13,796 nucleotides of DNA, taken from IMG/VR virus record IMGVR_UViG_2619619125_000002. One strand, 5' to 3'. Below are positions 1 to 12,265 of this stretch, piece by piece. A model generated the notes under the pieces. The model saw only the letters and a program-made list of their open reading frames with translations. It did no database searches and had not been told where the DNA came from. Made by a program: the position numbers and the translations under genes. Positions within the stretch are counted from its first letter, which is position 1. The number at the start of each line of letters is the position of its first letter. The stretch is from a virus (taxonomy: Duplodnaviria; Heunggongvirae; Uroviricota; Caudoviricetes).

Positions 1-576
1 CTACGGCAGTGCTGGCCATTCAATATCCTGTGCAGTTGACGTATCAACACGGTTCAGCAATACCCGATACTTTTTCCATGCTTCCAGCAACGAGATTTCT
101 TCCTCCGTTGCAATTTCCAGATCTGCAGCATCCTGAAGCGGCGCAATATGCTCACTGGCTACCTGCATCAGGCTGTTTTTTGTTTCTTCCGCCTCCCGGA
201 TCCGGAACAGTTTTTCTGCTTCCGTATCCTTCACCCAGGCTGTGCCGTTCCACTTCTGATATTCCCCTCCCGGCGATAACCAGGTAACATTTTCCGGTAA
301 CGGACCGAGTTCAGAAATAAATAACGCGTCGCCGGAAGCCACGTCATAGACGGTTTTTCCCCGATGATCTTCAACGAGATGCCACGATGCCTCATCACTG
401 TTGAAAACAGCCACGAAGCCTGCCGGAATATCTGGCGGTGCAATATCGGTACTGTTTGCTGGCAGACCTGTATGAGGCGGAATATATGCGTCACCTTCAC
501 CAATAAATTCATTAGTTCCGGCCAGCAGATTATAAATTTTTATGGTCCGTGGTTGTTCACTCATTCTGAATGCCAT
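1..576 (-). CDS. Tail fiber assembly protein (Tfa family), 191 aa
   Basis: ORF translation [28 protein letters not shown]... matches the Tfa proteins of E. coli prophages (TfaR/TfaQ/TfaE) as remembered; ATG at 574-576, stop TAG at 3-1 exactly at the window edge. Confidence 0.85.
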
Positions 577-1139
577 TATGCAAGCCTCACAATATAGTTA
601 AATGCGATGTTTTTGACGGTGTTTTCCGCATTACCAGCAGCGTTATCCGGTTTACCGCCCGACGGCTCATAAACAGGCGTATCAATTTTCGTCGTATACG
701 GCTCCTCCTCATTTCCTGTACCGGGCAAAACATCCGTCAACAGTTCATCAATTTCTGTCGGGATGAAGCCTGTCAGGGAGACATCAAAATCAGCATTGAT
801 TAGGTCCGACAGCTCCATCCGCAACAGATCTTCATCCCAGCCAGCATTCATCGGCAGGCGATTATCTGCCAGGCGGTACGCCTTTTTCTGCTCATCCGTC
901 AGGCCAGACAGAACAATGACCGGAACAGAATCCATTTTGAGCATTTCAGCCGCCATAACACGACCGTGACCCGCAATAATTTCGCCCTTTTCGTCAATCA
1001 GCACCGGATTAGTCCAGCCGAATTGCTTAATACTTTCTACCAGTTGTGCCACCTGCTCAGGGCTGTGCGTCCTGGCGTTGTGCGCATACGGTGACAATTC
1101 TTGTAATGGGCGATAGACTATCTTTAATTTCTCGCTCAT
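576..1139 (-). CDS. ParB-like nuclease domain protein (YnaK-like), 187 aa; C-terminal tail may derive from a side tail fiber gene
   Basis: N-terminal region ([50 protein letters not shown]) has a ParB/sulfiredoxin-like motif; ATG at 1137-1139; stop overlaps the tfa start as TAATG. Confidence 0.7.
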
Positions 1140-1166
1140 ACAGCCTTGCTTTATGAATAAAACGCA

Positions 1167-1190
1167 CCCCAGCAGCCAGTGCTACTGGGG
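1167..1190 (-). terminator. Possible hairpin downstream of trkG (ccccag...ctgggg stem)
   Basis: 6-bp GC-rich inverted repeat followed on the - strand by a U-rich stretch (gcguuuuauuc); sits between the trkG stop and the ParB-like gene start. Confidence 0.3.
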
Positions 1191-1276
1191 ACGGAGGGGT
1201 TGCTGGTAAAGTTAGGTATTGGATCAATGAGTGAGTCAACATAATATTAAACTCACAATTATAAATCAGCCATATA

Positions 1277-2734
1277 TTAGGAGCGCCAAAAAAAACCTGA
1301 AAACAATATAATAACAGGATAAATTTCAAGGCGACCAAGAATCATAGCTATGCACATTAAACATTTTGCAATGTCATTAAGCACTCCGAATGACGATGCA
1401 GTAGCCCCAAAACCTAATCCCATATTATTAATACATGCAGCCACTGTTGCAAATGATGTAAGAAAATCATATCCCATACCATTTAACACCAGTATAAAAA
1501 ACACCGTGAAGAGAGTATAAAGAAAAAAGAAACTCCATACAGACCTCATTACACGATCTGTAACTATCTTCCCTCCTACATTTACACTCAACAACGCTCT
1601 GGGATGAGAAAGCTGATTTATCTCGTGTTTGCTTTGTTTGAAAAGTATAAGAAATCGAAGTGACTTAATTCCACCACAAGTTGAACCTATACATCCCCCA
1701 AAGAAACTTGACAACAGCAAAAACACTATCGTGTGCGTGGGCCAACTTGCATAATCCTGCGTAGCTAAACCATTATCAGTGAGCATGGAGCTGGCAAGAA
1801 AAAACGAATGAATAAAACTTCCATGCAAGTCATACATACCTATATGCCAGACCTGGAAAGAGGTAACAATGATCACCCCTAAGGCTATTAACAGAAAGAA
1901 ACGAAGTTCAATATCTCTGATTAAAGGTTTTATCGTTTTCCTGCTAATAACAATATACCAAAGAGTGAAGTTGAAAGCCGATAGCAGGGAAAAAGAACCA
2001 GCCACCAGCTCAACCAAATAGTTATTAAAATATCCGATACTCTCGCTATGAGTTGAGAAACCACCAAGCGAAACTGTGGAAATCCCGTGACAAATAGCAT
2101 CAAACAAAGGCATTCCTGCAAGTCTATAACAGACAATACAAGCAATACCTAATAAAGAATAAGTTATCCACAGTGTCCGTGACGTATCGGCCAGGCGGGG
2201 AGTGAGTTTGTCATCCTTAAATGGCCCCGGCATTTCTGACTGATAAAGCTTTGCACCACCAATACCCAATAATGGCAATACAGCAACCGCCAGAACAATA
2301 ACTCCTAAACCACCTATAAAATTTAACTGTGACCGATAGTACAAATATGCCCGAGGTAATGAACTAACATCATCAATTACAGTTGCTCCTGTTGTTGTTA
2401 TTCCAGAAACCCCTTCAAACAGAGCATCAATGAACGTTAAATTAAGTTCTGAGTCAATCCATAAAGGGAATGCACTAATAACAGAAAACAAAATCCAAAA
2501 CATTACAATTATAATAAACCCATCACGGGTACGTAATTGAATGCCAGATTTCTTAGTTGTATACCACGCTCCGCCACCAATGCAAAAAAATATAACGAAA
2601 GTTATAAAGAAAACGAACAGGCTTTTTTCTTTATAAAACAATGCTACAACCATTGGTGGCAACATTGAAAGACTATAGAGCCAAACCAGGAACCCACACA
2701 TATGAGTAACAACTCTTACATGAGATGTATTCAT
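1277..2734 (-). CDS. trkG: Trk-system potassium uptake protein TrkG, 485 aa
   Basis: Translation from MNTSHVRVVTHMCGFLVWLY... matches remembered TrkG over its length; multi-pass membrane protein; ATG at 2732-2734. An upstream TTG at 2750-2752 with an AAGGTGG Shine-Dalgarno is an alternative start. Confidence 0.9.
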   Translation of the reverse strand: MNTSHVRVVTHMCGFLVWLYSLSMLPPMVVALFYKEKSLFVFFITFVIFFCIGGGAWYTTKKSGIQLRTRDGFIIIVMFWILFSVISAFPLWIDSELNLTFIDALFEGVSGITTTGATVIDDVSSLPRAYLYYRSQLNFIGGLGVIVLAVAVLPLLGIGGAKLYQSEMPGPFKDDKLTPRLADTSRTLWITYSLLGIACIVCYRLAGMPLFDAICHGISTVSLGGFSTHSESIGYFNNYLVELVAGSFSLLSAFNFTLWYIVISRKTIKPLIRDIELRFFLLIALGVIIVTSFQVWHIGMYDLHGSFIHSFFLASSMLTDNGLATQDYASWPTHTIVFLLLSSFFGGCIGSTCGGIKSLRFLILFKQSKHEINQLSHPRALLSVNVGGKIVTDRVMRSVWSFFFLYTLFTVFFILVLNGMGYDFLTSFATVAACINNMGLGFGATASSFGVLNDIAKCLMCIAMILGRLEIYPVIILFSGFFWRS

Positions 2735-2871
2735 ATCTAAATATTCTTTCAATTATAACCACCTTGCTGCAATATTATGATTATACTGTATAAAATTTAA
2801 CTCCTCTTAGATCTTACTTCACTGTTCCTTATGAAACAATCATCAAAATGAATCATATTGTAGTTAAGATT

Positions 2872-3336
2872 TTACTTTAAACACTGCTCGGTTATGTATT
2901 GCTGAGCACCTTCAAGTTGGGCCTGCATCATTACCAGTCGTTCCCGGAGGGTGAAATAATCCCGTTCAGCGGTGTCTGCCAGTCGGGGGGAGGCTGCATT
3001 ATCCACGCCGGAGGCGGTGGTGGCTTCACGCACTGACTGACAGACTGCTTTGATGTGCAACCGACGACGACCAGCGGCAACATCATCACGCAGAACATCA
3101 TTTTCAGCTTTCGCATCAGCTAACTCCTTCGTGTATTTTGCATCGAGCGCAGCAACATCACGCTGACGCATCTGCATGTCAGTAATTGCCGCGTTCGCCA
3201 GCTTCAGTTCTCTGGCATTTTTGTCGCGCTGTTCTTTGTAGGCGATGGCGTTATCACGGTAATGATTAACACCCCATGACAGGCAGACGACGATGCAGAT
3301 AACCAGAGCGGAGATAATCGCGGTTACTCTGTTCAT
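2872..3336 (-). CDS. Rz i-spanin (inner-membrane spanin subunit)
   Basis: Translation [21 protein letters not shown]... with N-terminal TM and coiled-coil-like body; start ATG overlaps the R stop (ATGA); contains the embedded Rz1 frame, as in lambda/P21 Rz. Confidence 0.85.
2931..3116 (-). CDS. Rz1 o-spanin lipoprotein, embedded in the +1 frame of Rz
   Basis: Translation [24 protein letters not shown]... has a lipobox (VVGC) and a PPPPP proline-rich body typical of Rz1; lies wholly inside Rz. Confidence 0.8.
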
Positions 3337-3830
3337 TGCTGACCCCACAAACAGATTTCACGCTCAATCTCACGACGAGTCATGAGACCTTTCCATTGCT
3401 TACCGCCAGCATATGTCCAGCGACGTAGCTGATCACATGCGCCTTTGATATCGCCCTGGTTTATTTTGCGAAGAAGCGTCGATGTTCTGAAATTGCCAGC
3501 ACCCACGTTGTAAACGAATGAGTAAAGAGCGCCGCGCGTTGTTTCCGGTATATCGACTTTGATGTACGGGTTAATTTGTCTGGCGACCGTGGCAAGGTCT
3601 TTATTCAAGAGTGTTTTGCATTCTGCTTTGGTATACGTTTTACCGAGCATGATGTCTTTTCCTGTATGCCCGTGACATACAGTCCATACACCAACAATAT
3701 CTTTGTATGGTATGTAGCTGACACCTTCCAGACCATCGTTACCACTTGGGCCAGTGATTAACACTGATGCTATAGCAATTGCTCCGCCACCAATAGCAGC
3801 AGCAACGACTTTTCGTAATGATGGAGGCAT
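3333..3830 (-). CDS. Phage lysozyme R, SAR-type endolysin (P21 R / RrrD-like), 165 aa
   Basis: Translation [27 protein letters not shown]... has a Gly/Ala-rich N-terminal signal-anchor-release segment and a lysozyme body matching the DLP12 RrrD / phage 21 R as remembered; start overlaps the S stop (ATGA). Confidence 0.9.
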
Positions 3831-4045
3831 TATTCACCTCTCGCAGCCTTGCGCTTATCTTCTTTAATCTTGAAATAAAGGTTTGTCAGGTACGTCAGCA
3901 GGCCAAATACCAGACTACCCAGCACACCGATTGCAGCCCACTGTGACGGAGTTACTCTATCGAGCAACTGTAAAAACCAGTAGCCAGCACTGCCTGCGGA
4001 GGTGCCGTAGGCAATGCCTGTTGAAATTTTGTCCATGGATTTCAT
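3830..4045 (-). CDS. Holin S, phage-21-type pinholin, 71 aa, with dual-start motif MKSM
   Basis: Translation [71 protein letters not shown]; ATG at 4043-4045 and a second ATG at 4034-4036 (Met1/Met4); strong SD GGAGGTG upstream. Confidence 0.85.
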
Positions 4046-4145
4046 AGCCTCACCTCCGCACGGAACGGATGGCATAGTTATTATGTGTAGGCTTTCAGAC
4101 ACATCAATCAGAGCCTTAATTGATATATATGCTGGAGACGATGCA

Positions 4146-4171
4146 ATATAAAAAGCTCGCCGTAGCGAGCT
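4146..4171 (-). terminator. Rho-independent terminator-like hairpin downstream of the second lipoprotein gene
   Basis: Perfect 7-bp stem agctcgc/gcgagct with a 4-nt loop, followed on the - strand by UUUUAUAU. Confidence 0.4.
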
Positions 4172-4296
4172 AATAAAATGTATTTCTCTGATATTATGTT
4201 TATTTGTATTAGCTCAGACTTGACATCACAGGTTTCGTATATAGAACATCATCAAATCTGTCAGTTTGCTATGAATGAGATATAGTAATTGAAGAG

Positions 4297-4692
4297 CTAA
4301 CCTCGCATGTCAAAGCCAGATTTCTGAAAATCTCTGTAGACTTCCGGATTGTTGAAGGCCGGAAATTTGGCTTTATGAGCTGCGGACTTTATCGCTTCGC
4401 AATAGGCTTTATCACCGTTACTGGTAGATATTTTTAACGCCGTGCCATCCTGAGAGAATTCCATATGCAACCTGCATTTTTTCCCTTTCCAGTTATGCGG
4501 CTCATCAAGTTTGGCATTAATTGCAGCTCTGATTCCCCGCGCTTGCGCCCCCCATTCATCCTGATCATCCCAGCGTCCTGAACTGCAACTACCTGTAGCA
4601 GTAGTTTTGTGGCAATCTGAAGGGTGTAAAGGTGTGCATCCCGCAACAAAACCGACCCAAAAAGTCAACATAACGATTTTCTTTAATCCCAC
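4297..4692 (-). CDS. Lipoprotein with divergent TolA C-terminal (domain III)-like fold, 131 aa, probable GTG start
   Basis: N-terminus MGLKKIVMLTFWVGFVAGC is a lipoprotein signal peptide (lipobox VAGC); GTG start at 4690-4692 preceded by AGGAG with an 8-nt spacer; C-terminal region (KKCRLHMEF...YCEAIKSAA...NPEVYRDFQ) parallels the paralog at 4843-5271. Confidence 0.65.
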   Translation of the reverse strand: MGLKKIVMLTFWVGFVAGCTPLHPSDCHKTTATGSCSSGRWDDQDEWGAQARGIRAAINAKLDEPHNWKGKKCRLHMEFSQDGTALKISTSNGDKAYCEAIKSAAHKAKFPAFNNPEVYRDFQKSGFDMRG

Positions 4693-4842
4693 TTCTTGCT
4701 CCTCAATCCATTAAAATCTCAGCAATAGTAGTTGTTACGTCCGCCACTGGCTCAGAGCTGACTATCCGCTAAATTTAGCTCAGTGCCGTAGCTGTGTCAG
4801 AACAAACCTAAGCCGAAACCGTTTATTACAAAACAATAAATA

Positions 4843-5271
4843 TCAGGGTTTAAAATCCAGCACCCCATTTTGAAATACTTTATATACTTCCGGCGAAGGG
4901 GGGGCAGGTATATCAGCATTCTTTATCGCATTCATCGCTTCACGACATAAATCGAGGTCTCCACTTTCTCTTTTAACCTCCAGTAGAAGGCCATTCGGGG
5001 CCATATGCATTCTCAGTGTACACTCTTTTCCTGAATACTTACTCGCATCCCCGAACTGTTTTTCGATGGCGCTCTTGATTTGATGGGCATACAGACGGAT
5101 ATCCTCACTAACATCAGAAGTACGTTCAGATGAACTCACATACTGTGTCTCTATTGCTTTATCGGAGTAATATGATGTACGGTCATGATAATTTGTCGAT
5201 ACAGCATCAGTGCACCCGATAATAATCCCACTAATAATCAACGTAAGAATTGATGCGCTACGAAAACCCAT
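4843..5271 (-). CDS. Lipoprotein with TolA C-terminal domain (TolA-III) homology, 142 aa
   Basis: Signal peptide with lipobox (IIGC); C-terminal 85 aa (YAHQIKSAIEKQFGDASKYSGKECTLRMHMAPNGLLLEVKRESGDLDLCREAMNAIKNADIPAPPSPEVYKVFQNGVLDFKP) aligns with the C-terminus of E. coli TolA as I remember it (YAGQIKSAIESKFYDASSYAGKTCTLRIKLAPDGMLLDIKPEGGDPALCQAALAAAKLAKIPKPPSQAVYEVFKNAPLDFKP); ATG at 5269-5271 with a GAGGA SD. Confidence 0.8.
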   Translation of the reverse strand: MGFRSASILTLIISGIIIGCTDAVSTNYHDRTSYYSDKAIETQYVSSSERTSDVSEDIRLYAHQIKSAIEKQFGDASKYSGKECTLRMHMAPNGLLLEVKRESGDLDLCREAMNAIKNADIPAPPSPEVYKVFQNGVLDFKP

Positions 5272-5300
5272 TTTTCCTCACATATGTCATATAGTAAAGG

Positions 5301-5330
5301 ATTATATATACCGTTGTTTTGGACGCTCAA
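5301..5330 (-). promoter_or_regulatory. Candidate sigma70 promoter for the TolA-domain lipoprotein gene (-35 TTGAGC, 18-bp spacer, -10 TATAAT)
   Basis: On the - strand, TATAAT (complement of 5301-5306) and TTGAGC (complement of 5325-5330) about 30 nt upstream of the ATG at 5271. Confidence 0.35.
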
Positions 5331-5860
5331 ACAGCGAATCAGATCAAATAAAACGCACATTTGTTAACATTTACACAAAGTCTGCGTGGGATATTCTGAA
5401 AGAATATCCATAATGTGGAGAGAATCTATTGAAGTGCATGGTGCCGGGTGCCTTCCGGTGAACAAAATGTTCGTGATACCTGTCGGCGACAGAAAAGGTT
5501 AATGGTATCACCCCACCGCACAGGGGGATTCACCATGCAGGAGTTTTCTTAGCAAACTCACTGCGCGCCCGGCAACTCCCAACCACATAAAATGCGGAGT
5601 TTGTGGTATTTATGCATATAACTCGCAGGAATTATCTTAAAAAACTGATGTCGATCCGGATTAAAAAGAAGCAGGTCATCATCAGATGACTGGAAAAAAG
5701 GAAAAAAAAAATACTCATCATACAGTTTTGATTGCAGGGATGAGCCTGCTATGCACAATATGCAGAATATAAGCAAGATAAAAATATGCAGGCATATTAT
5801 TTCGGATTTTGTTATTAACACAACCTTTTTAATAATCATTTGGCATACAATAAACCAGTC

Positions 5861-5887
5861 CAAAAAGAACCGCCTAAACAGGCGGTT
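5861..5887 (-). terminator. Terminator-like hairpin in the late leader region (aaccgcc / ggcggtt stem followed by a U-run on the - strand)
   Basis: 7-bp perfect stem with a 6-nt loop; - strand reads ...ggcggtt cuuuuugg. Confidence 0.35.
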
Positions 5888-6141
5888 GGTCAATACAAAG
5901 GATGCTTCGTCTTTATTATAGTAATCTGAGGCGTCGGGTGTCTTGTATCAGACAACATATTGTCCCGCTAAACAGCGAATTACAAACCACCCTGCAATGA
6001 TCTCTCATCTCATTTTATATGAGTTGACGACATCAGGATAACGCATCATCAGCCCCTGCCAAGAAATATCAAAACTCCCGCCAGCAATGTGTTATCACAA
6101 TATTGTAAAAAAAACACAGCACCGAAACTATAACTGGTCTC

Positions 6142-6150
6142 TGTTATAAT
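6142..6150 (+). promoter_or_regulatory. Extended -10 element TGtTATAAT on the + strand, flanked by a 9-bp inverted repeat (6132-6140 / 6162-6170)
   Basis: tgttataat at 6142-6150; aactggtct and agaccagtt flank it symmetrically; no good -35. Could drive a short + strand RNA ending at the 6205-6237 terminator, or be an operator or late-promoter-associated element. Confidence 0.25.
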
Positions 6151-6204
6151 TTGGAGCAGAAAGACCAGTTGCCCAACTAGCAGCATTCTCCCCTGCTTTC
6201 CTGA

Positions 6205-6237
6205 CGTAAAAAAACCGCATTAAGCGGTTTTTTTACG
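6205..6237. terminator. Bidirectional rho-independent terminator (14-bp perfect inverted repeat cgtaaaaaaaccgc / gcggtttttttacg), candidate tR' downstream of Q
   Basis: Perfect 14-bp palindromic arms with a 5-nt loop (attaa); GC core flanked by A7/T7 runs so it reads as hairpin plus U-run in both orientations; lies about 80-110 nt downstream of the Q stop. Confidence 0.6.
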
Positions 6238-6314
6238 ATGTCCATGTCTGCAATCCGCCTCGCGATACAGCTGTGCGAAGCATAGCAAAATTGAAGCAGT
6301 TTATACGTAAGAAA

Positions 6315-6857
6315 TCAAGCCATTTTCTCAGCAAATGATTCACGCATGGGAATATATAGGGCATACTCAGCAACAGCTAACCAATTAGCAATCCGTTTTT
6401 CGCATGTGCTAAAACACCACTCTGGGTGTCCATCATTTAGCAATTCAGCCATTTTGCGCTTAGTCATCCCCCGCCCTTCATAGCGTTGCCGGAGAATGCA
6501 AATCAATCCTGGATGCTCTGCCAGCACCTCACTTATGACTCGATCAATACATAACGCCTCTGCATCAGTACAATGCGCCAGCCAGCTCTTTTGCTTGCCG
6601 TTGATCATCTCTCGCAAAAACGCTTCCAGCTCAGCTTTCTCTATTCCCGCTTTTTTCATTCTACGCAGGGCTTCATTAATGGCTGTTTTCGTCAGTTTTT
6701 TGGATGCCAACAACTGATTGAACATATTCCCTGACCTGCCACCGCCAATATACGACCAGCGCCCCCACATACGTAGTTTTCCCTGAATCCAGACACTTTC
6801 CAGCGTGGTGAGGCGAAGGTGTTCTCCGCTTTTTCCTGTATTCGTTGGGTAAATCAT
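6315..6857 (-). CDS. Putative late-gene antitermination protein Q, 180 aa
   Basis: Sits immediately upstream of the late leader/terminator and the S-R-Rz cassette; contains an RMWGRW motif resembling the ERWGAW motif I recall in the DLP12 Q-like protein QuuD; Cys-containing C-terminal half; start overlaps the YbcO-like stop (ATGA). Confidence 0.6.
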   Translation of the reverse strand: MIYPTNTGKSGEHLRLTTLESVWIQGKLRMWGRWSYIGGGRSGNMFNQLLASKKLTKTAINEALRRMKKAGIEKAELEAFLREMINGKQKSWLAHCTDAEALCIDRVISEVLAEHPGLICILRQRYEGRGMTKRKMAELLNDGHPEWCFSTCEKRIANWLAVAEYALYIPMRESFAEKMA

Positions 6858-7144
6858 AAATGACCTTTCTTTCTCCAGATTTCTTGTGTGCGAAAAACCC
6901 CTTCAGCATGCATCAGGCGCAATTCTTCTTTGGTGTAATCGCTGGTTTTTACCCGCCCGTCGATTAGATCGTGGCATGAGCTACAGGCTATCGCCGCCTG
7001 CATATCGTGTGGTTTTGTCGCTGTTCCGCACGTCCCCGCCAGCCTGTAATGCGCCAGCACAGAGGTTTCGGGATTGTGATTGCAGTAGCCAGGGATTCTG
7101 ATCTGGCACATCTGGCCTTTAGCCGCTTTACGTAAATTCACCAT
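6854..7144 (-). CDS. YbcO-like (DUF1364) putative zinc-binding nuclease, 96 aa
   Basis: Size, Cys/His pattern (CxxxxxC ... CxxC ... CSSCHDLIDGR) and position just upstream of Q match the DLP12 ybcO / nin-region genes as remembered. Confidence 0.7.
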   Translation of the reverse strand: MVNLRKAAKGQMCQIRIPGYCNHNPETSVLAHYRLAGTCGTATKPHDMQAAIACSSCHDLIDGRVKTSDYTKEELRLMHAEGVFRTQEIWRKKGHL

Positions 7145-7743
7145 TACGCAAACTCCAGTAGTTGTGCGGCCACATTTTCAACTTCCTCCTGAGAGGAGAA
7201 TTTACGAAACAGAATCCAGTTCCACAGCACATTCAGTACAGATTTATAAACCTGCTGAAACTCGACTTCGTCCATATTCGCAAAAGCGATGGATTTTGCC
7301 CGACGCCCACGGCTACCGTCCGGATAAATATGCTCGGTGTAAAATCCGGCCTGAATGGTTACCCACTCGCGGAAAGCCTCAAACGACTTTAGCAACGCCG
7401 TATCCCGGGTTCTACGAGTCGCAACGGTGTTAAGGTATTGCTCTGCGGCATCACTCAGGGCTGGCGTGTGTTCCCGACCAACTGATTCGCACAGGTAATC
7501 AACGAAACCAGACAGCAGTTCTCGTTCGCGAGGCGTGATCGCCCCACCGACCGGAGTCCAGTAATCGAATCCCAGTTGCAGGAGTTTGAAAAAACGCTTG
7601 TGGAATGCGTAGTTACGCACACGCTTAAAGTCTGCGTGTATCCACTCACCTATTTTGATTTGATGCAGAAAATCGCAACTCTCCGGCGTCGCCGGGAGAA
7701 GTAAACCAGAAGAAGTTTGTTTGACCAGTTGTATATGCGCCAT
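7144..7743 (-). CDS. DUF1367-family phage protein (nin-region), 199 aa
   Basis: ATG at 7741-7743; stop overlaps the ybcO-like start (TAATG); position upstream of ybcO/Q typical of lambdoid nin-region genes; family assignment from memory. Confidence 0.6.
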   Translation of the reverse strand: MAHIQLVKQTSSGLLLPATPESCDFLHQIKIGEWIHADFKRVRNYAFHKRFFKLLQLGFDYWTPVGGAITPRERELLSGFVDYLCESVGREHTPALSDAAEQYLNTVATRRTRDTALLKSFEAFREWVTIQAGFYTEHIYPDGSRGRRAKSIAFANMDEVEFQQVYKSVLNVLWNWILFRKFSSQEEVENVAAQLLEFA

Positions 7744-7801
7744 TTCTCAATCTCTCGATGGCGCAGCGCAGCAGATGCCAGTTGTTCAGGCTGACGAATA
7801 A

Positions 7802-7829
7802 AGTATAAATAAACTGGCTATGGTGTAAA
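7802..7829 (-). promoter_or_regulatory. Candidate sigma70 promoter for the DUF1367-ybcO-Q operon (-35 TTTACA, 16-bp spacer, -10 TATACT)
   Basis: On the - strand about 60 nt upstream of the DUF1367 ATG, at the boundary with the AT-rich island. Confidence 0.3.
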
Positions 7830-8023
7830 GCCCCACATAGCATGAACAAACACTACATATCAAATAGCTGGTACAAGGATAGAAATACGACATTTATTAT
7901 TAAAAACGATTAGATAAATTACATTTTAATGTTATGCAAAAGTTCTTTTTTATCATAACATTTCAATAAAAGCATTACAGATGCAATCATCCCGTCATCA
8001 TCAATTATTTAAGGTGGTTAAAC

Positions 8024-8110
8024 ATGGAAAATAACAAGTTCGCACATCTCGCTCCTTTTTTATCCGTAATCCTTTTCGCTTGTTGTTTTATATGGGCATT
8101 ATTTTTATAA
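8024..8110 (+). CDS. Small hydrophobic ORF, 28 aa (MENNKFAHLAPFLSVILFACCFIWALFL), candidate small membrane protein
   Basis: ATG at 8024 preceded by the strong SD AAGGTGG with a 6-nt spacer; single predicted TM helix; lies in AT-rich DNA with no other ORF. Confidence 0.3.
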   Translation: MENNKFAHLAPFLSVILFACCFIWALFL

Positions 8111-8204
8111 AGTAGCCACATGATAAGTTGCTGGAATCATATTTCCCACTCAAGTCATTAACATTTGATAAGATATATCTAAAAGGACGCCTTTACATTA
8201 TTTA

Positions 8205-8231
8205 TGTGTATATAATTTATTTATATACACA
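8205..8231. repeat. Perfect 10-bp inverted repeat tgtgtatata (7-nt spacer) tatatacaca, candidate protein-binding site
   Basis: Read directly from the sequence; the left arm/spacer junction contains TATAAT (8211-8216). Confidence 0.3.
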
Positions 8232-8556
8232 GTAAAGGTATCCTGGGAAAATATTTATCGTTAAAAAATACATCATAAATAATTAAGCTGAAATTTCAGA
8301 ACACAACTAATACACACAATAAGGTTCAGTAACAATAATCTATGTGGACTACATCGAGATTTTTTGATTAAACTTTAATAACTTATTCCTAACACACAGA
8401 ATGCATAAACTAAAAGTAAAACAAATAGTTATACGAAAAACAACCATATTTATTATATCTTCTCCTCTAATCAACATATCAATTATGTGTTTCATAACAG
8501 CTTGACATAACCCTCAAAAACACGCATTTATAATGCATGTTTTTGATGAGGTGGTT

Positions 8557-8895
8557 ATGACACACAAGAGAATTCCTAAAGATTGGGTAATCAAACGCTC
8601 AACTCCGTTCTTCACAAAAGAGAACGTACCTTCAGCGTTATTAACACATCATAATACAGCAGCAGGTGTTTTTGGGCAGTTGTGCGTAATGGAAGGCACT
8701 GTAACATATTATGGTTTTACTGATGAGAATGCTACTGAACCGGAGATAAAAGTAGTCATTAATGCTGGCGCTTTTGCAACAAGCCCACCACAATACTGGC
8801 ACCGTGTTGAACTAAGCGATGATGCTCAGTTTAATATTAACTTTTGGGTCGCTCCAGACTTCTCGGGCGAAAAAGTCTATAGCACCAAAAAATAG
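8557..8895 (+). CDS. DUF1971-family protein (YeaR / TehB-N-terminal-domain-like), 112 aa
   Basis: Translation MTHKRIPKDWVIKRSTPFFTKE...VMEGTVTYYGFTDENATEPE...AGAFATSPPQYWH...FNINFWVAPD parallels E. coli YeaR as remembered (RSTPFW...VMHGAVKYLGYADEHSAEPD...AGQFAVFPPEKWH...FNIDFFVAPE); SD GAGGTGG before the ATG at 8557; own terminator downstream. Confidence 0.7.
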   Translation: MTHKRIPKDWVIKRSTPFFTKENVPSALLTHHNTAAGVFGQLCVMEGTVTYYGFTDENATEPEIKVVINAGAFATSPPQYWHRVELSDDAQFNINFWVAPDFSGEKVYSTKK

Positions 8896-8924
8896 ATGAT
8901 CATATTAAAAATGCTTTAACAGTC

Positions 8925-8961
8925 AGACCCGGCAGGGCTATCCCCGACGGGTCTCATTTTT
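8925..8961 (+). terminator. Rho-independent terminator downstream of the DUF1971 gene
   Basis: Long interrupted hairpin (agacccggcaggg ... ccccgacgggtct) followed by cattttt. Confidence 0.6.
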
Positions 8962-9618
8962 GTAAATATATTGGTTCTACATTGACAGGAGACTTCAACC
9001 ATAAGAAGTAATCTGAATACTTGAGCAATAAATTTACTTAAGATTAATGAGCGCACCTTGCCGGACAAAGATAAACCAAGGTAACACCTTTTTTCTAGCC
9101 AGTATGTAATCAATCAGAAAGCCGCTCCATAAGAACAACAGCAAGACAATAAATTGCCATTACAGCCGCAATAGCTAGCGCACATTTGAGAACCAGCACG
9201 ACAACCTCCTGTATTGGACGTACACCAGTTCTGATAAATATGAGGCTGTCTCATCATTGATTCAATATAACTATTGGGTATAGTTTCTGTGATTTTGTTC
9301 TGTAGAAATGGAACACAACAACCAGTCACCACCAGCACTTCTTTAAATACGCCAAGTCCGACGCAAGCTAACCTTCTAGTCCGCTTTGAGCGAGGAGCGG
9401 ACCAAACCCGGCCAACTGACTCTTAAAGGGGCCGCAGGAATTTTTCGTCTGAACTTTCGAAGCTCCTCTCCCTGAAGACAGAAAACTTCTGTGTGCTGTG
9501 GGAATATTGAATCTTTGCCTTAGATATAAATAATTTTATCCCGCCTGAAGTTTACATTATTTTATTTATCTGTTTTTCTAAATCAGACTGCACTCCTTAC
9601 TTAAATCAGGAGCCAGTC

Positions 9619-11010
9619 ATGCCATTTGTTATTTATGTGTTTACTATCAGTGCCTTTGCGCTCGGACTCGCGGAATTTGTCCCCATTGGGCTGACAGACG
9701 TTATGGCTCAGGGGTTGTGTGTGGGTGTGGAGCAGACCGGGGCAGCGGTTACAACCTATGCACTGGGGGCAACGTTCGCGGCACCCGTACTGTCTGCGCT
9801 GACAGCAAGCTGGAGCCGGAAAAATGTAATGCTTACAACTGCCGTTGTGTTTACTGCCGGTAGTCTGGCGGCCGCGTTTGCAGCCACATTACCTCAGCTC
9901 CTGTTAGCGCGGTTCATTGCTGGTCTGGGACACGGCCTGTTTCTGGCTGCGGCATCCAGTACCGCAGCTCGTCTTGCTGGACCGGGTAACTGCCCTGACT
10001 GTGGTGCGGTGATGGGCGACGCAACATACCAGGAAACATTCGATGAAGAGAGTCAGGTTGAAGCTAAGGAAAATGATCCGGAGGAAATGGAAGGCGCTGA
10101 ACATCCGCACAATGAGAATGCTGGCAGCGATCCGCATCGCGATTGCAGTGATGAAACTGGCGAAGTCGCAGATCCCGTAATCGTAGAAGACATAGAGCCA
10201 GGTATTTATTACGGAATTTCGAATGAGAATTACCACGCGGGTCCCGGTATCAGTAAGTCTCAGCTCGATGACATTGCTGATACTCCGGCACTATATTTGT
10301 GGCGTAAAAATGCCCCCGTGGACACCACAAAGACAAAAACGCTCGATTTAGGAACTGCTTTCCACTGCCGGGTACTTGAACCGGAAGAATTCAGTAACCG
10401 CTTTATCGTAGCACCTGAATTTAACCGCCGTACAAACGCCGGAAAAGAAGAAGAGAAAGCGTTTCTGATGGAATGCGCAAGCACAGGAAAAACGGTTATC
10501 ACTGCGGAAGAAGGCCGGAAAATTGAACTCATGTATCAAAGCGTTATGGCTTTGCCGCTGGGGCAATGGCTTGTTGAAAGCGCCGGACACGCTGAATCAT
10601 CAATTTACTGGGAAGATCCTGAAACAGGAATTTTGTGTCGGTGCCGTCCGGACAAAATTATCCCTGAATTTCACTGGATCATGGACGTGAAAACTACGGC
10701 GGATATTCAACGATTCAAAACCGCTTATTACGACTACCGCTATCACGTTCAGGATGCGTTCTACAGTGACGGTTATGAAGCACAGTTTGGAGTGCAGCCA
10801 ACTTTCGTTTTTCTGGTTGCCAGCACAACTATTGAATGCGGACGTTATCCGGTTGAAATTTTCATGATGGGCGAAGAAGCAAAACTGGCAGGTCAACAGG
10901 AATATCACCGCAATCTGCGAACCCTGTCTGACTGCCTGAATACCGATGAATGGCCAGCTATTAAGACATTATCACTGCCCCGCTGGGCTAAGGAATATGC
11001 AAATGACTAA
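9619..11010 (+). CDS. recE: Truncated exonuclease VIII (RecE C-terminal catalytic domain) fused in-frame to a foreign N-terminal segment of about 120 aa resembling the first TM helices of an MFS transporter
   Basis: C-terminal ~300 aa (...[17 protein letters not shown]... ending [11 protein letters not shown]) is the RecE nuclease domain with a PD-(D/E)xK-like D-x-K motif and overlaps the recT start by 8 nt; N-terminal 1 to ~120 ([25 protein letters not shown]...[18 protein letters not shown]) is hydrophobic and MFS-like; real ATG with AGGAG SD at 9608-9612. Confidence 0.8.
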
Positions 11011-11868: not shown

Positions 11869-12063
11869 ATGAGATATGACAATGTTAAACCATGTCCATT
11901 TTGTGGTTGTCCATCAGTAACGGTGAAAGCCATTTCAGGATATTACCGAGCGAAGTGTAACGGATGCGAATCCCGAACCGGTTATGGTGGAAGTGAAAAA
12001 GAAGCACTCGAAAGATGGAATAAACGAACCACTGGAAATAATAATGGAGGTGTTCATGTATAA
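11869..12063 (+). CDS. ralR: RalR, Rac prophage restriction-alleviation protein / type I toxin (DNase), 64 aa
   Basis: Translation MRYDNVKPCPFCGCPSVTVKAISGYYRAKCNGCESRTGYGGSEKEALERWNKRTTGNNNGGVHV matches remembered RalR; stop overlaps the ydaC start. Confidence 0.9.
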   Translation: MRYDNVKPCPFCGCPSVTVKAISGYYRAKCNGCESRTGYGGSEKEALERWNKRTTGNNNGGVHV

Positions 12064-12265
12064 AATTACCGCCACTATTGAAAAGGAAGGTGGCACTCCT
12101 ACTAACTGGACAAGATATTCAAAATCTAAACTAACGAAATCAGAATGCGAAAAAATGCTCTCAGGTAAAAAAGAAGCAGGCGTTTCCAGAGAGCAGAAAG
12201 TAAAACTGATAAATTTTAATTGCGAGAAACTTCAGTCCTCGAGAATTGCATTGTATTCAAATTAA
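12056..12265 (+). CDS. ydaC: YdaC, Rac prophage small protein, 69 aa
   Basis: Translation MYKITATIEKEGGTPTNWTRYSKSKLTKSECEKMLSGKKEAGVSREQKVKLINFNCEKLQSSRIALYSN; SD GGAGG upstream of the ATG at 12056. Confidence 0.85.
   Translation: MYKITATIEKEGGTPTNWTRYSKSKLTKSECEKMLSGKKEAGVSREQKVKLINFNCEKLQSSRIALYSN

What the first reader, a model, noticed from the sequence alone, without database searches (positions are those of the whole stretch)
7744..9618. AT-rich 1.9-kb island replaces the immunity/replication region of the prophage
Between the nin-like operon and the recE fusion, where a Rac-type phage would carry racC, kilR, sieB, the racR repressor and replication genes, there is instead AT-rich DNA with sparse coding: a DUF1971 gene, a 28-codon ORF, palindromes, and the promoter and 5' end of an MFS transporter gene. 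This looks like horizontally acquired cargo that inactivated the prophage while preserving int/xis, recET and the Q-lysis module. The composition suggests H-NS-silenced DNA and a possible regulatory or defence locus.
Basis: inference. Interest (0 to 1): 0.55.

Follow-up and report, generated by a model that had tools for sequence, protein, structure and literature searches.

The report
Prophage cargo slot beside a deletion
The AT-rich stretch is an ordinary cargo slot of Rac-type E. coli prophages, here carrying a probably nitric-oxide-regulated stress gene and two unannotated mini-genes, and the phage's immunity and replication genes are missing because of a separate, rare 12.9-kb deletion next to it, not because this DNA replaced them.

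Summary
GC is 0.36 over 7744-9618 and 0.29 over 7790-8530, against 0.45 elsewhere. There is one annotated gene (DUF1971), a 28-codon ORF, palindromes, and an MFS gene start at 9619.

Strain CI5 and other complete-looking Rac prophages carry the same DNA together with racR, ydaS/T, replication genes, sieB, kilR, racC and full recE. The window lacks these because of a 12,937-bp deletion from MFS codon 123 to recE codon 527. The junction is at 9987-9989 and occurs in only 2 of 5426 E. coli genomes. ET729 has an independent MFS-to-recE deletion.

The segment is a mosaic cargo slot between the replication module and the DUF1367-YbcO-Q operon:
- Phage backbone ends at 8111, just after a conserved 28-aa membrane-peptide ORF.
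- 8112-9094 is a 983-bp DUF1971 cassette that occupies the place of hokD in ET729.
- 9095-9402 is a hok-associated element with a conserved 29-aa ORF.
- From about 9506 an Enterobacter-like MFS cassette begins.

The DUF1971 gene is 79% identical to a Salmonella homologue that I take, untested, to be the NsrR-regulated STM1808. It has a strong NsrR-type operator at 8519-8541, conserved in all phage and chromosomal enterobacterial relatives examined. It is probably a nitric-oxide-induced moron. Interest is modest.

The parts
6315..7743 (-). Phage backbone operon DUF1133 (Q-like antiterminator), YbcO/DUF1364 and DUF1367. It forms the left border of the cargo slot.
   Evidence: Pfam E-values of 7e-107, 5e-45 and 6e-98; RefSeq annotation.
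7802..7829 (-). Best sigma-70-like site of the region (TTTACA-16-TATACT, 10 of 12 matches), 59 nt upstream of the DUF1367 start. Candidate own promoter of the DUF1367-YbcO-Q operon.
   Evidence: The surrounding block is conserved in the diverged prophage 683R6. Function is inferred.
7744..8111 (.). Conserved backbone block. It stays with DUF1367 whatever cargo follows, and homology to prophages with other cargo stops at 8111.
   Evidence: The block is in 1176 of 5426 genomes, and all diverged matches end at query position 262, which is window 8111.
8024..8110 (+). Unannotated 28-codon ORF, MENNKFAHLAPFLSVILFACCFIWALFL, with Shine-Dalgarno TAAGGTG at 8010-8016. Predicted small membrane peptide.
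   Evidence: Seven nucleotide alleles in 11 loci, all 28 codons long, with the Shine-Dalgarno kept and pN/pS of 0.26-0.39 for the five alleles with amino-acid changes (the sixth differs from the window by one synonymous change). No Pfam, NCBIfam, PHROG or PADLOC family.
8112..9094 (.). 983-bp DUF1971 cassette: hairpin, AT-rich leader, operator and promoter, gene, terminator and spacer. It occupies the place of a 459-bp hokD module in ET729.
   Evidence: Homology breakpoints at 8111/8112 and 9094/9095. The module is in 468 of 5426 genomes.
8184..8244 (.). 61-nt imperfect hairpin enclosing a perfect 11-bp palindrome. On the minus strand it is followed by TTTT. Likely a transcription stop or insulator after the 28-aa ORF.
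   Evidence: dG -25.6 kcal/mol, z -5.9. A canonical GC-rich bidirectional terminator sits at the same position in 683R6. Function is inferred.
8519..8541 (.). NsrR-type 11-1-11 operator, AACACGCATTTATAATGCATGTT, 15 nt before the DUF1971 start codon. It overlaps the TATAAT at 8529-8534; a TTGACA lies at 8502-8507.
   Evidence: Scores 20.7 bits on a matrix built from 26 distinct CFT073 sites (PMC5320621). The next best site in the window scores 12.5, and 0.05% of shuffles reach 20.7. The site is conserved in orthologues.
8557..8895 (+). DUF1971 gene, 112 aa. STM1808/YeaR family; cupin-like TehB N-domain fold.
   Evidence: Pfam E = 2e-26. 79% identity to the Salmonella homologue, 75% to Vibrio fluvialis, 41% to K-12 YeaR. 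PDB 3DL3 E = 3.5e-59. PHROG 34268.
8926..8961 (+). Intrinsic terminator of the DUF1971 gene: GACCCG...CGGGTC followed by TCATTTTT.
9095..9402 (-). About 300-bp element that lies immediately upstream of hokW/hokD mRNA starts in lambdoid phages. Here hok itself is absent.
   Evidence: 94% identity to phages Evi and Tritos, 86% to mEp460, 98% to pMS20655A, 78% to Shigella pWR501.
9110..9199 (-). Unannotated 29-codon ORF, (M)LVLKCALAIAAVMAIYCLAVVLMERLSD, with a GTG start and Shine-Dalgarno ACAGGAGG. A promoter-like TTGAAT-17-CATATT lies at 9265-9237.
   Evidence: Six nucleotide alleles, all 29 codons long, pN/pS of 0.06-0.36. Present in isolated phages Evi, Tritos, mEp460 and HannyBb.
9506..9989 (+). 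Left end of a captured MFS-GGCT-LysR cassette: upstream region plus MFS codons 1-123 (9619-9987).
   Evidence: 87% nucleotide identity to an Enterobacter sp. chromosome, starting at the window-equivalent position 9506. Pfam MFS_1 over aa 9-122.
9987..9989 (.). Deletion junction: a TAA shared by both parental sequences within a 9/13 imperfect microhomology. 12,937 bp are missing relative to strain CI5.
   Evidence: The junction is present in only 2 of 5426 genomes.
9990..11010 (+). 3' part of recE (RecE residues about 527-866, the whole PD-(D/E)XK domain), read in frame with the MFS 5' end as a 463-aa ORF spanning 9619-11010.
   Evidence: Pfam DUF3799 over aa 212-447; coordinates.

Best explanation
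The window is a doubly deleted Rac-type prophage at ttcA. Bases 7744-9618 are not a replacement island. They are the left part of the normal moron (cargo) slot that Rac-type lambdoid prophages carry between the replication module (ydaU/V/W, DUF977) and the DUF1367-YbcO-Q operon.

The slot is mosaic:
1. 7744-8111 is phage backbone. It ends with a conserved 28-codon membrane-peptide gene.
2. 8112-9094 is a self-contained DUF1971 cassette. A strong hairpin insulates it, and a 23-bp NsrR-type operator overlaps the -10 region of its promoter. The gene encodes an STM1808/YeaR-family protein and ends in an intrinsic terminator.
3. 9095-9402 is an element with a conserved 29-codon hydrophobic ORF that normally sits just upstream of hok genes.
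4. From about 9506 an MFS-GGCT-LysR cassette begins, captured from an Enterobacter- or Klebsiella-like chromosome.

Mechanism (inferred). In the lysogen, the host NO sensor NsrR binds the operator and blocks the promoter. Nitric oxide inactivates NsrR and the DUF1971 protein is made, adding to nitrosative-stress tolerance. This is a host-benefit moron that survives prophage decay.

The immunity and replication genes are absent for an unrelated reason. An illegitimate recombination at a TAA microhomology deleted 12,937 bp from MFS codon 123 to recE codon 527. That removed the rest of the cargo, the replication genes, ydaT/ydaS, racR, sieB, kilR, racC and the recE 5' part in one step.

Shown: the anatomy, the breakpoints, the distribution, the operator match and its conservation, and the coding signatures of the small ORFs. 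Inferred: NsrR binding, NO induction, the benefit to the host, the function of the peptides, and the role of the hairpin.
For: Deletion:
- Window 644-9989 equals CI5 (L001) 7145-16490, and window 9977-10863 equals L001 29415-30301, with junction overlap ending in TAA.
- In CI5 the missing interval holds MFS 3', GGCT, LysR, DUF2254, BCCT, DUF977, replication genes, ydaT, an HTH gene, a racR-like gene, ydaF, sieB, kilR, ydaE, racC and recE 5'.
- The junction is in 2 of 5426 genomes.
- ET729 has a different, out-of-frame MFS-to-recE deletion.

Native slot:
- The module 7790-8900 is in 468 genomes, 450 of them nearly full length.
- It is always next to DUF1367, in prophages that keep the immunity and replication modules.
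- The same slot holds other cargo in other prophages: hok plus KilA-N, QueH, IteS/IteA, IS421 plus hok, or hokD.
- Backbone homology stops at 8111 in every case.

NsrR operator:
- The site scores 20.7 bits, the top site in the window by 8 bits, with shuffle p of about 0.0005.
- Allelic versions score 25.7-26.6 bits.
- Klebsiella and Salmonella chromosomal homologues have unrelated promoter sequence but sites of 26.8 and 27.8 bits.
- All 35 IMG/VR contigs with usable upstream sequence have a site 14-25 nt before the ATG, in 9 variants of 17.7-29.0 bits.
- The Vibrio fluvialis orthologue follows norV-norW.
- STM1808 is described as an NsrR-regulon gene with a virulence role (PMC7527575 and PMC7082413, citing Karlinsey 2012).
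- YeaR, a paralogue, is NsrR-regulated (PMC5320621).

Small ORFs: constant length, retained Shine-Dalgarno sequences, pN/pS of 0.06-0.39 across alleles with amino-acid changes.

Cassette origin: 87% nucleotide identity to an Enterobacter chromosome.
Against: - No expression, ChIP or binding data exist for this locus. K-12 lacks the region, so its data sets do not cover it (for Qin; the K-12 Rac content is from memory).
- The window's operator allele is one of the weaker variants, at 20.7 bits.
- The consensus -35 and -10 hexamers are 21 bp apart, so the exact promoter is uncertain. The scan tool did not call a promoter there.
- The biochemical function of DUF1971 proteins is unknown.
- The identity of the Salmonella homologue with STM1808 rests on gene neighbourhood and my memory of locus numbering, not on a direct sequence check.
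- The 'phage' records carrying the module are PHASTER-predicted prophages, not isolated virions.
- The AT-rich leader at 8245-8500 has no assigned function.
Confidence: 0.8

Rival explanations
1. One reading: a horizontally acquired AT-rich island was inserted into, or substituted for, the immunity and replication region. This inactivated the prophage while leaving int/xis, recET and Q-lysis intact.
For: The immunity and replication genes are absent, and AT-rich foreign-looking DNA lies between the nin-like operon and recE. The cargo is of mixed foreign origin.
Against: The same DNA coexists with intact immunity and replication modules in CI5, AR_0067, GF50 and 666R9. It is 200-fold more frequent than the deletion: 468 genomes against 2. 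The breakpoints lie inside the MFS gene and recE, not at the edges of the AT-rich DNA. No IS remnants or target duplications were found. A second deletion removed the structural genes.
Confidence: 0.04
2. The AT-rich DNA is functionally inert, H-NS-coated filler. The palindromes and small ORFs are chance features of AT-rich sequence, and DUF1971 is a silenced passenger.
For: GC is 0.28-0.29 over about 750 bp. AT-rich xenogeneic DNA is a typical H-NS target (established knowledge). IS1 or IS3 insertions are tolerated in or near the segment in some strains. There is no Rfam family and no promoter excess over shuffles.
Against: The operator is conserved in position and motif across 9 variants and across non-homologous promoters. 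Both small ORFs show purifying selection and fixed length. The gene has its own terminator. H-NS coating and NsrR control are not mutually exclusive.
Confidence: 0.1
3. The core of the locus is toxin-antitoxin or defence-like. The 28-aa and 29-aa hydrophobic peptides would be type I toxins, like the neighbouring hok in sister phages, kept in check by antisense RNAs. The slot would be primarily an addiction or defence hotspot.
For: The peptides are short, hydrophobic and conserved, with strong Shine-Dalgarno sequences. The 29-aa ORF element is physically tied to hok loci. A conserved opposite-strand promoter-like TTGATT-16-TATAGT lies at 9257-9284. The same slot carries hok or IteS/IteA in other prophages.
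Against: There is no match to any known toxin family, PADLOC model or Rfam antitoxin RNA. No antisense RNA complementary to either ORF has been demonstrated. The predicted plus-strand transcript would run away from the 29-aa ORF. Toxicity is untested.
Confidence: 0.2

Closest known systems
Lambdoid prophage morons (autonomous cargo cassettes with their own promoter and terminator, such as lambda bor/lom, or trkG in Rac)
   Same: The cassette is compositionally atypical. It lies between two phage modules and is transcribed opposite to the phage early-right operon. It has its own promoter/operator and terminator. It is present in some otherwise collinear prophages and absent from others.
   Different: The slot lies between the replication genes and DUF1367-YbcO-Q. 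It is bounded by a conserved 28-codon ORF and exchanges discrete cassettes: hokD, DUF1971, IteS/IteA or QueH. I found no description of this slot in Rac-type phages in the searchable literature.
Salmonella STM1808 and E. coli YeaR (DUF1971 proteins of the NsrR regulon)
   Same: Same Pfam domain, with 79% identity to the Salmonella dsbB-ycgN-locus protein and 41% to YeaR. An 11-1-11 NsrR-type operator sits just upstream, as at yeaR, ytfE and hmp.
   Different: The gene is carried on a prophage rather than at the chromosomal dsbB-ycgN locus. The promoter sequence is unrelated apart from the operator. Regulation by NsrR is not shown experimentally here.
Rac prophage of E. coli K-12 and its decay by deletion
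   Same: Same integration site (ttcA) and same genes: intR, xisR, rcbA, ralR/RalA, recT, recE, trkG and tfaR. The prophage is defective through large deletions.
   Different: K-12 keeps racR, ydaS/T, kilR and sieB but has lost the Q and nin region and this cargo slot. The window keeps Q-lysis and the slot but has lost immunity and replication.
sbcA-type recE fusions of laboratory K-12 (deletions that fuse the recE 3' part to an upstream gene)
   Same: A deletion removes the repressor region and the recE 5' part. It leaves the nuclease domain plus recT downstream of a foreign promoter, in frame.
   Different: This is a natural isolate. The fusion partner is an MFS transporter N-terminus with transmembrane segments. 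Activity is unknown, and the independent ET729 deletion is out of frame, so there is no sign of selection for a fusion protein. The resemblance is from memory and was not tested.
hok/sok type I toxin-antitoxin loci of lambdoid phages and plasmids
   Same: The element at 9095-9402 is the DNA that immediately precedes hokW/hokD mRNA starts. The cassette at 8112-9094 sits exactly where hokD sits in ET729.
   Different: There is no hok, mok or sok sequence in the window. Only the upstream 29-codon ORF element remains.

Membership tests
Prophage moron / cargo slot | Present in some and absent from other otherwise collinear prophages, with sharp homology breakpoints | tested here: met
   Breakpoints at 8111/8112 and 9094/9095 against ET729. 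Six different contents at the same slot.
Prophage moron / cargo slot | Own promoter and own terminator, independent of phage operons | tested here: inconclusive
   The terminator at 8926-8961 is clear. TTGACA and TATAAT hexamers are present but 21 bp apart, and the scan did not call a promoter. There are no transcript data.
Prophage moron / cargo slot | Base composition different from the phage backbone | tested here: met
   GC of 0.28-0.41 against 0.49 for the adjacent operon.
NsrR regulon member | 11-1-11 inverted-repeat operator that matches the NsrR matrix | tested here: met
   20.7 bits, within the range of known sites (8.7-30.6 leave-one-out). 0.05% of shuffles reach it.
NsrR regulon member | Operator conserved upstream of orthologues | tested here: met
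   Present in Klebsiella, Salmonella, 3 E. coli alleles and 35 of 35 IMG/VR contigs with usable upstream sequence.
NsrR regulon member | NsrR binding and derepression by nitric oxide | not testable with these tools
   Needs EMSA or ChIP, and expression in an nsrR mutant or after NO donors.
DUF1971 (YeaR/STM1808/TehB N-domain) family | Significant match to Pfam PF09313 over the full domain | tested here: met
   E = 2.3e-26, profile positions 1-80 of 80. PDB 3DL3 E = 3.5e-59.
   No such repeats. No transposase or integrase ORF in 7744-9618.
   It coexists with racR, replication genes, sieB, kilR and racC in CI5, AR_0067, GF50 and 666R9.
Type I toxin-antitoxin (for the 28-aa and 29-aa ORFs) | Small hydrophobic peptide under purifying selection | tested here: met
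Type I toxin-antitoxin (for the 28-aa and 29-aa ORFs) | Cognate antisense or divergent sRNA complementary to the toxin mRNA | tested here: inconclusive
   No Rfam hit. There is a conserved opposite-strand promoter-like site at 9257-9284, but no demonstrated overlap with the mRNA.
Type I toxin-antitoxin (for the 28-aa and 29-aa ORFs) | Toxicity on overexpression | not testable with these tools
   Needs an experiment.
H-NS-silenced xenogeneic DNA | AT-rich relative to the genome | tested here: met
   GC of 0.286 over 741 bp.
H-NS-silenced xenogeneic DNA | H-NS occupancy and derepression in an hns mutant | not testable with these tools
   K-12 lacks this DNA (from memory for Rac; for Qin), so published K-12 ChIP data do not cover it.
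Anti-phage defence system | Match to a known defence protein model | tested here: not met
   No PADLOC hit for DUF1971, the fusion protein, DUF1367 or the peptides.

The most novel reading that the evidence does not exclude
Rac-type and related lambdoid prophages have a defined cassette-exchange slot whose fixed edge is a previously unannotated 28-codon membrane-peptide gene. A second unannotated 29-codon peptide gene travels with hok loci, including upstream of icsP on the Shigella virulence plasmid. Both peptides would be functional, as new type I toxin-like or phage membrane effectors. The DUF1971 cassette in this slot would put a phage-borne gene under the host NO sensor NsrR, giving about 9% of E. 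coli strains an extra nitrosative-stress factor that the species otherwise lacks.
Probability: 0.3. Interest if true: 0.5.

Novelty: new member of a known kind. Interest (0 to 1): 0.3.

Why it matters
The missing immunity region is routine prophage decay by deletion, and the AT-rich DNA is a normal moron slot.

Three things remain of modest value:
- A clean, testable prediction that a prophage-borne STM1808-like gene in roughly 9% of sequenced E. coli is wired into the host NsrR nitric-oxide response. This bears on survival in the inflamed gut or in macrophages.
- Two conserved small-protein genes that RefSeq annotation misses in more than a thousand genomes. One of them marks the exact recombination boundary of the slot.
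- A worked example of how one deletion can remove a repressor together with the toxic genes it controls (ydaS/T, kilR). Repression of the YdaS toxin by RacR is reported in PMC5700373; I inferred this from the title and abstract. That constraint would explain why the whole block goes at once.

Tried and rejected
- Rfam found no RNA family in 7744-9618, either at gathering thresholds on the whole window or at permissive E-values on 7700-9700 (only chance-level miRNA and snoRNA hits).
- The promoter and terminator scan showed no excess over shuffles and missed the DUF1971 promoter.
- Pfam, NCBIfam, PHROGs and PADLOC gave nothing for the two small peptides or for the 65-aa, 67-aa and 74-aa ORFs.
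- A fold of the 306-nt minus-strand transcript region at 9105-9410 was no better than shuffles (z -0.47), so there is no support for a structured long leader.
- K-12 Qin has neither small ORF, so K-12 ribosome-profiling data cannot help.
- The primary paper on STM1808 (PMC3438343) is not held, so I relied on secondary citations.
- Literature searches for DUF1971, IteS/IteA and a Rac hotspot found nothing that describes this slot.
- I considered that the in-frame MFS::RecE fusion was selected. I rejected this as unsupported, because the independent ET729 deletion is out of frame and only two genomes carry the window's junction.
- I considered that the 'phage' records prove infectious phages carry the module. 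I rejected this because they are PHASTER predictions.
Full report
**What the window is.**
The whole 13,796-bp window is identical to a Rac-type prophage remnant at ttcA in E. coli SW071614, a wastewater isolate from the Galapagos. Its gene order is:
- tfaR, ynaK remnant, trkG, Rz-like gene, rrrD, essD, TolA-C-domain genes;
- the DUF1133 (Q-like), YbcO and DUF1367 operon;
- DUF1971;
- an MFS 5' fragment fused to the recE 3' part;
- recT, ralR, rcbA, xisR and intR.

Rfam finds RalA, IS009 and STnc100 elsewhere in the window, and nothing in 7744-9618.

**Observation check.**
The composition dip is real. GC is 0.363 for 7744-9618 and 0.286 for 7790-8530, against 0.447 for the rest of the window. 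The only annotated gene is DUF1971 at 8557-8895 (Pfam 2e-26). The 28-codon ORF is at 8024-8110. The palindromes and the MFS start at 9619 are all present.

**Why the immunity and replication genes are missing.**
Strain CI5 carries the same DNA at 100% identity over window 7500-9800, in a fuller prophage. There, DUF1367 is followed by the AT-rich DNA, DUF1971, a complete MFS gene, GGCT, LysR, DUF2254 and BCCT. After these come DUF977, replication genes, ydaT, a ydaS-like gene, a racR-like gene, ydaF, sieB, kilR, ydaE, racC and full-length recE.

Window 644-9989 aligns to CI5 locus 7145-16490, and window 9977-10863 aligns to 29415-30301. The two parental sequences share only TAA within a 9/13 imperfect match at the junction. 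The window therefore carries a 12,937-bp deletion from MFS codon 123 to recE codon 527. This produces the in-frame 463-aa ORF at 9619-11010, with MFS_1 over aa 9-122 and the PD-(D/E)XK domain over aa 212-447.

A 221-bp probe across the junction is complete in only 2 of 5426 complete E. coli genomes. ET729 has an independent, out-of-frame deletion between the same two genes, 12,456 bp long. The structural genes are also missing, through a second deletion near 576-644. The cargo therefore did not inactivate the prophage.

**The segment is a native, mosaic cargo slot.**
The AT-rich plus DUF1971 module (7790-8900) occurs in 468 of 5426 genomes, in three identity classes. In CI5, AR_0067, GF50 and the PHASTER-'intact' prophage vB_EcoS-666R9 it sits next to DUF1367, in prophages that retain immunity, replication, sieB, kilR, racC and recE.

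The block 7850-8111 is in 1176 genomes, and every diverged match stops at 8111. Beyond that point the content differs between prophages:
- IteS/IteA;
- IS421 plus hok;
- hokD, in a CFT073 prophage with a DUF968-RusA-Q backbone;
- hok plus KilA-N after DUF1971;
- QueH after DUF1971.

ET729 is decisive. It matches the window up to 8111 and again from 9095, and has a 459-bp hokD module where the window has 8112-9094. The AT-rich 'island' proper is therefore a 983-bp cassette.

Bases 9095-9402 are an element found immediately upstream of hokW/hokD mRNA starts. It is present in phages Evi, Tritos and mEp460 and in a plasmid prophage, and at 78% identity upstream of icsP on Shigella pWR501. From window-equivalent position 9506 the DNA is 87% identical to an Enterobacter sp. 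chromosomal MFS-GGCT-LysR cluster.

**The DUF1971 cassette.**
The protein is 79% identical to a Salmonella protein encoded beside ycgN and 75% identical to a Vibrio fluvialis protein encoded directly after norV-norW; a Klebsiella homologue (about 72% nucleotide identity) lies in the dsbB-ycgN interval. It is 41% identical to K-12 YeaR, and has a close solved homologue, PDB 3DL3.

The palindrome at 8519-8541, AACACGCATTTATAATGCATGTT, matches 19 of 23 positions of the ytfE NsrR site. I scored it on a matrix built from the 26 distinct 11-1-11 sequences among the 27 sites listed for CFT073 (PMC5320621). It scores 20.7 bits, against 12.5 for the next best site in the window, and 0.05% of shuffles reach that value.

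The operator is conserved in other contexts:
- The other E. coli alleles score 25.7-26.6 bits.
- The Klebsiella and Salmonella genes have otherwise unrelated upstream sequence, yet carry sites of 26.8 and 27.8 bits.
- All 35 IMG/VR contigs with usable upstream sequence carry a site 14-25 nt before the ATG, in nine variants of 17.7-29.0 bits.

In Klebsiella and in one IMG/VR contig, a TTGAC(C/G)-17-CATATT promoter has its -10 inside the operator. In the window, TTGACA (8502-8507) and TATAAT (8529-8534) are both present but 21 bp apart, so the exact promoter is uncertain. Any reading still puts the -10 under the operator. A clear intrinsic terminator follows the gene at 8926-8961.

STM1808 is cited as an NsrR-regulon gene with a role in virulence (PMC7527575 and PMC7082413, citing Karlinsey 2012). 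I could not read the primary paper. I inferred, but did not test, that the Salmonella homologue used here is STM1808. On this evidence I propose that the cassette is an NsrR-repressed, NO-induced moron.

**Small ORFs.**
The 28-codon ORF (8024-8110) has seven nucleotide alleles in eleven loci. All are 28 codons long, all keep a Shine-Dalgarno sequence, and pN/pS is 0.26-0.39 for the five alleles with amino-acid changes.

The 29-codon ORF (9199-9110, minus strand, GTG start, Shine-Dalgarno ACAGGAGG) has six alleles with pN/pS of 0.06-0.36. Its -35 and -10-like hexamers are conserved in pWR501 although the spacer varies.

Neither ORF matches any family in Pfam, NCBIfam, PHROGs or PADLOC. Neither is annotated in RefSeq. 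Both are absent from K-12 Qin. Both peptides are hydrophobic. Whether they are toxins is unknown.

**Other features.**
The hairpin at 8184-8244 is far more stable than shuffles (z -5.9). It occupies the position where a canonical bidirectional terminator follows the 28-codon ORF in 683R6-type prophages, so I read it as a stop or insulator. The leader at 8245-8500 has no assigned function. H-NS binding is plausible from composition but untestable here.

**Verdict.**
The 'replacement' and 'inactivation' interpretation is not supported. The novelty is that of a new member of known kinds: a prophage moron and an NsrR-regulon gene. The two unannotated conserved mini-genes are a side finding.

Noticed in passing
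window 9619-11010: In-frame natural fusion of MFS transporter residues 1-123 to RecE residues about 527-866 (the complete PD-(D/E)XK domain), followed by recT. It is reminiscent of laboratory sbcA-type recE fusions. Only 2 of 5426 genomes carry it, and ET729 has an independent out-of-frame MFS-to-recE deletion.
   Followed up: partly
window 9110-9199 (-); L006 1610-1699 (Shigella pWR501): The conserved 29-codon hydrophobic ORF also lies about 290 nt upstream of icsP on the Shigella virulence plasmid, next to a remnant of a hok mRNA 5' end. It is unannotated there too.
   Followed up: partly
window 8024-8110 (+); L015 6141-6227 (CFT073): The 28-codon ORF also occurs in a different lambdoid backbone (DUF968-RusA-Q) in CFT073, convergent with hokD. 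It is therefore not restricted to Rac at ttcA.
   Followed up: partly
L009, L016, L017 (slot equivalent to window 8112 onward): Sister Rac-type prophages carry the IteS (S8 peptidase) and IteA (ATPase) anti-phage pair in the same slot, directly after the 28-codon ORF and a GC-rich bidirectional terminator.
   Followed up: partly
window ~576-644: A second deletion joins tfaR and a stub of an upstream gene to a ynaK remnant. Terminase, portal, head and tail genes present in CI5 are missing.
   Followed up: partly
window 5382-5568 (-), 12062-12240 (-), 35-233 (-): Rfam matches above the gathering score: STnc100 sRNA between the Q-like gene and the TolA-domain genes, the RalA antitoxin RNA opposite ralR, and IS009 RNA inside tfaR.
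   Followed up: no
window 4297-5271 (-): TolA C-terminal-domain protein genes (one intact, one partial) lie between the Q-like gene and the lysis cassette, which is an unusual moron position.
   Followed up: no
window 9257-9284 (+) and 9237-9265 (-): Overlapping, oppositely oriented promoter-like sites upstream of the 29-codon ORF. Both sets of hexamers are conserved in the 78%-identical Shigella copy, which suggests a divergent small transcript. It is uncharacterised.
   Followed up: partly
L014 (Vibrio fluvialis plasmid pIDH5335-3) 1-2827: The DUF1971 orthologue is the third gene after norV-norW (NO reductase flavorubredoxin and its reductase). This is an independent genomic link of the subfamily to NO detoxification.
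   Followed up: partly
window 7500-9800 in other strains (one search hits H1-H9; one search hit H136): IS3 or IS1A insertions interrupt this intergenic DNA in several strains.
   Followed up: no
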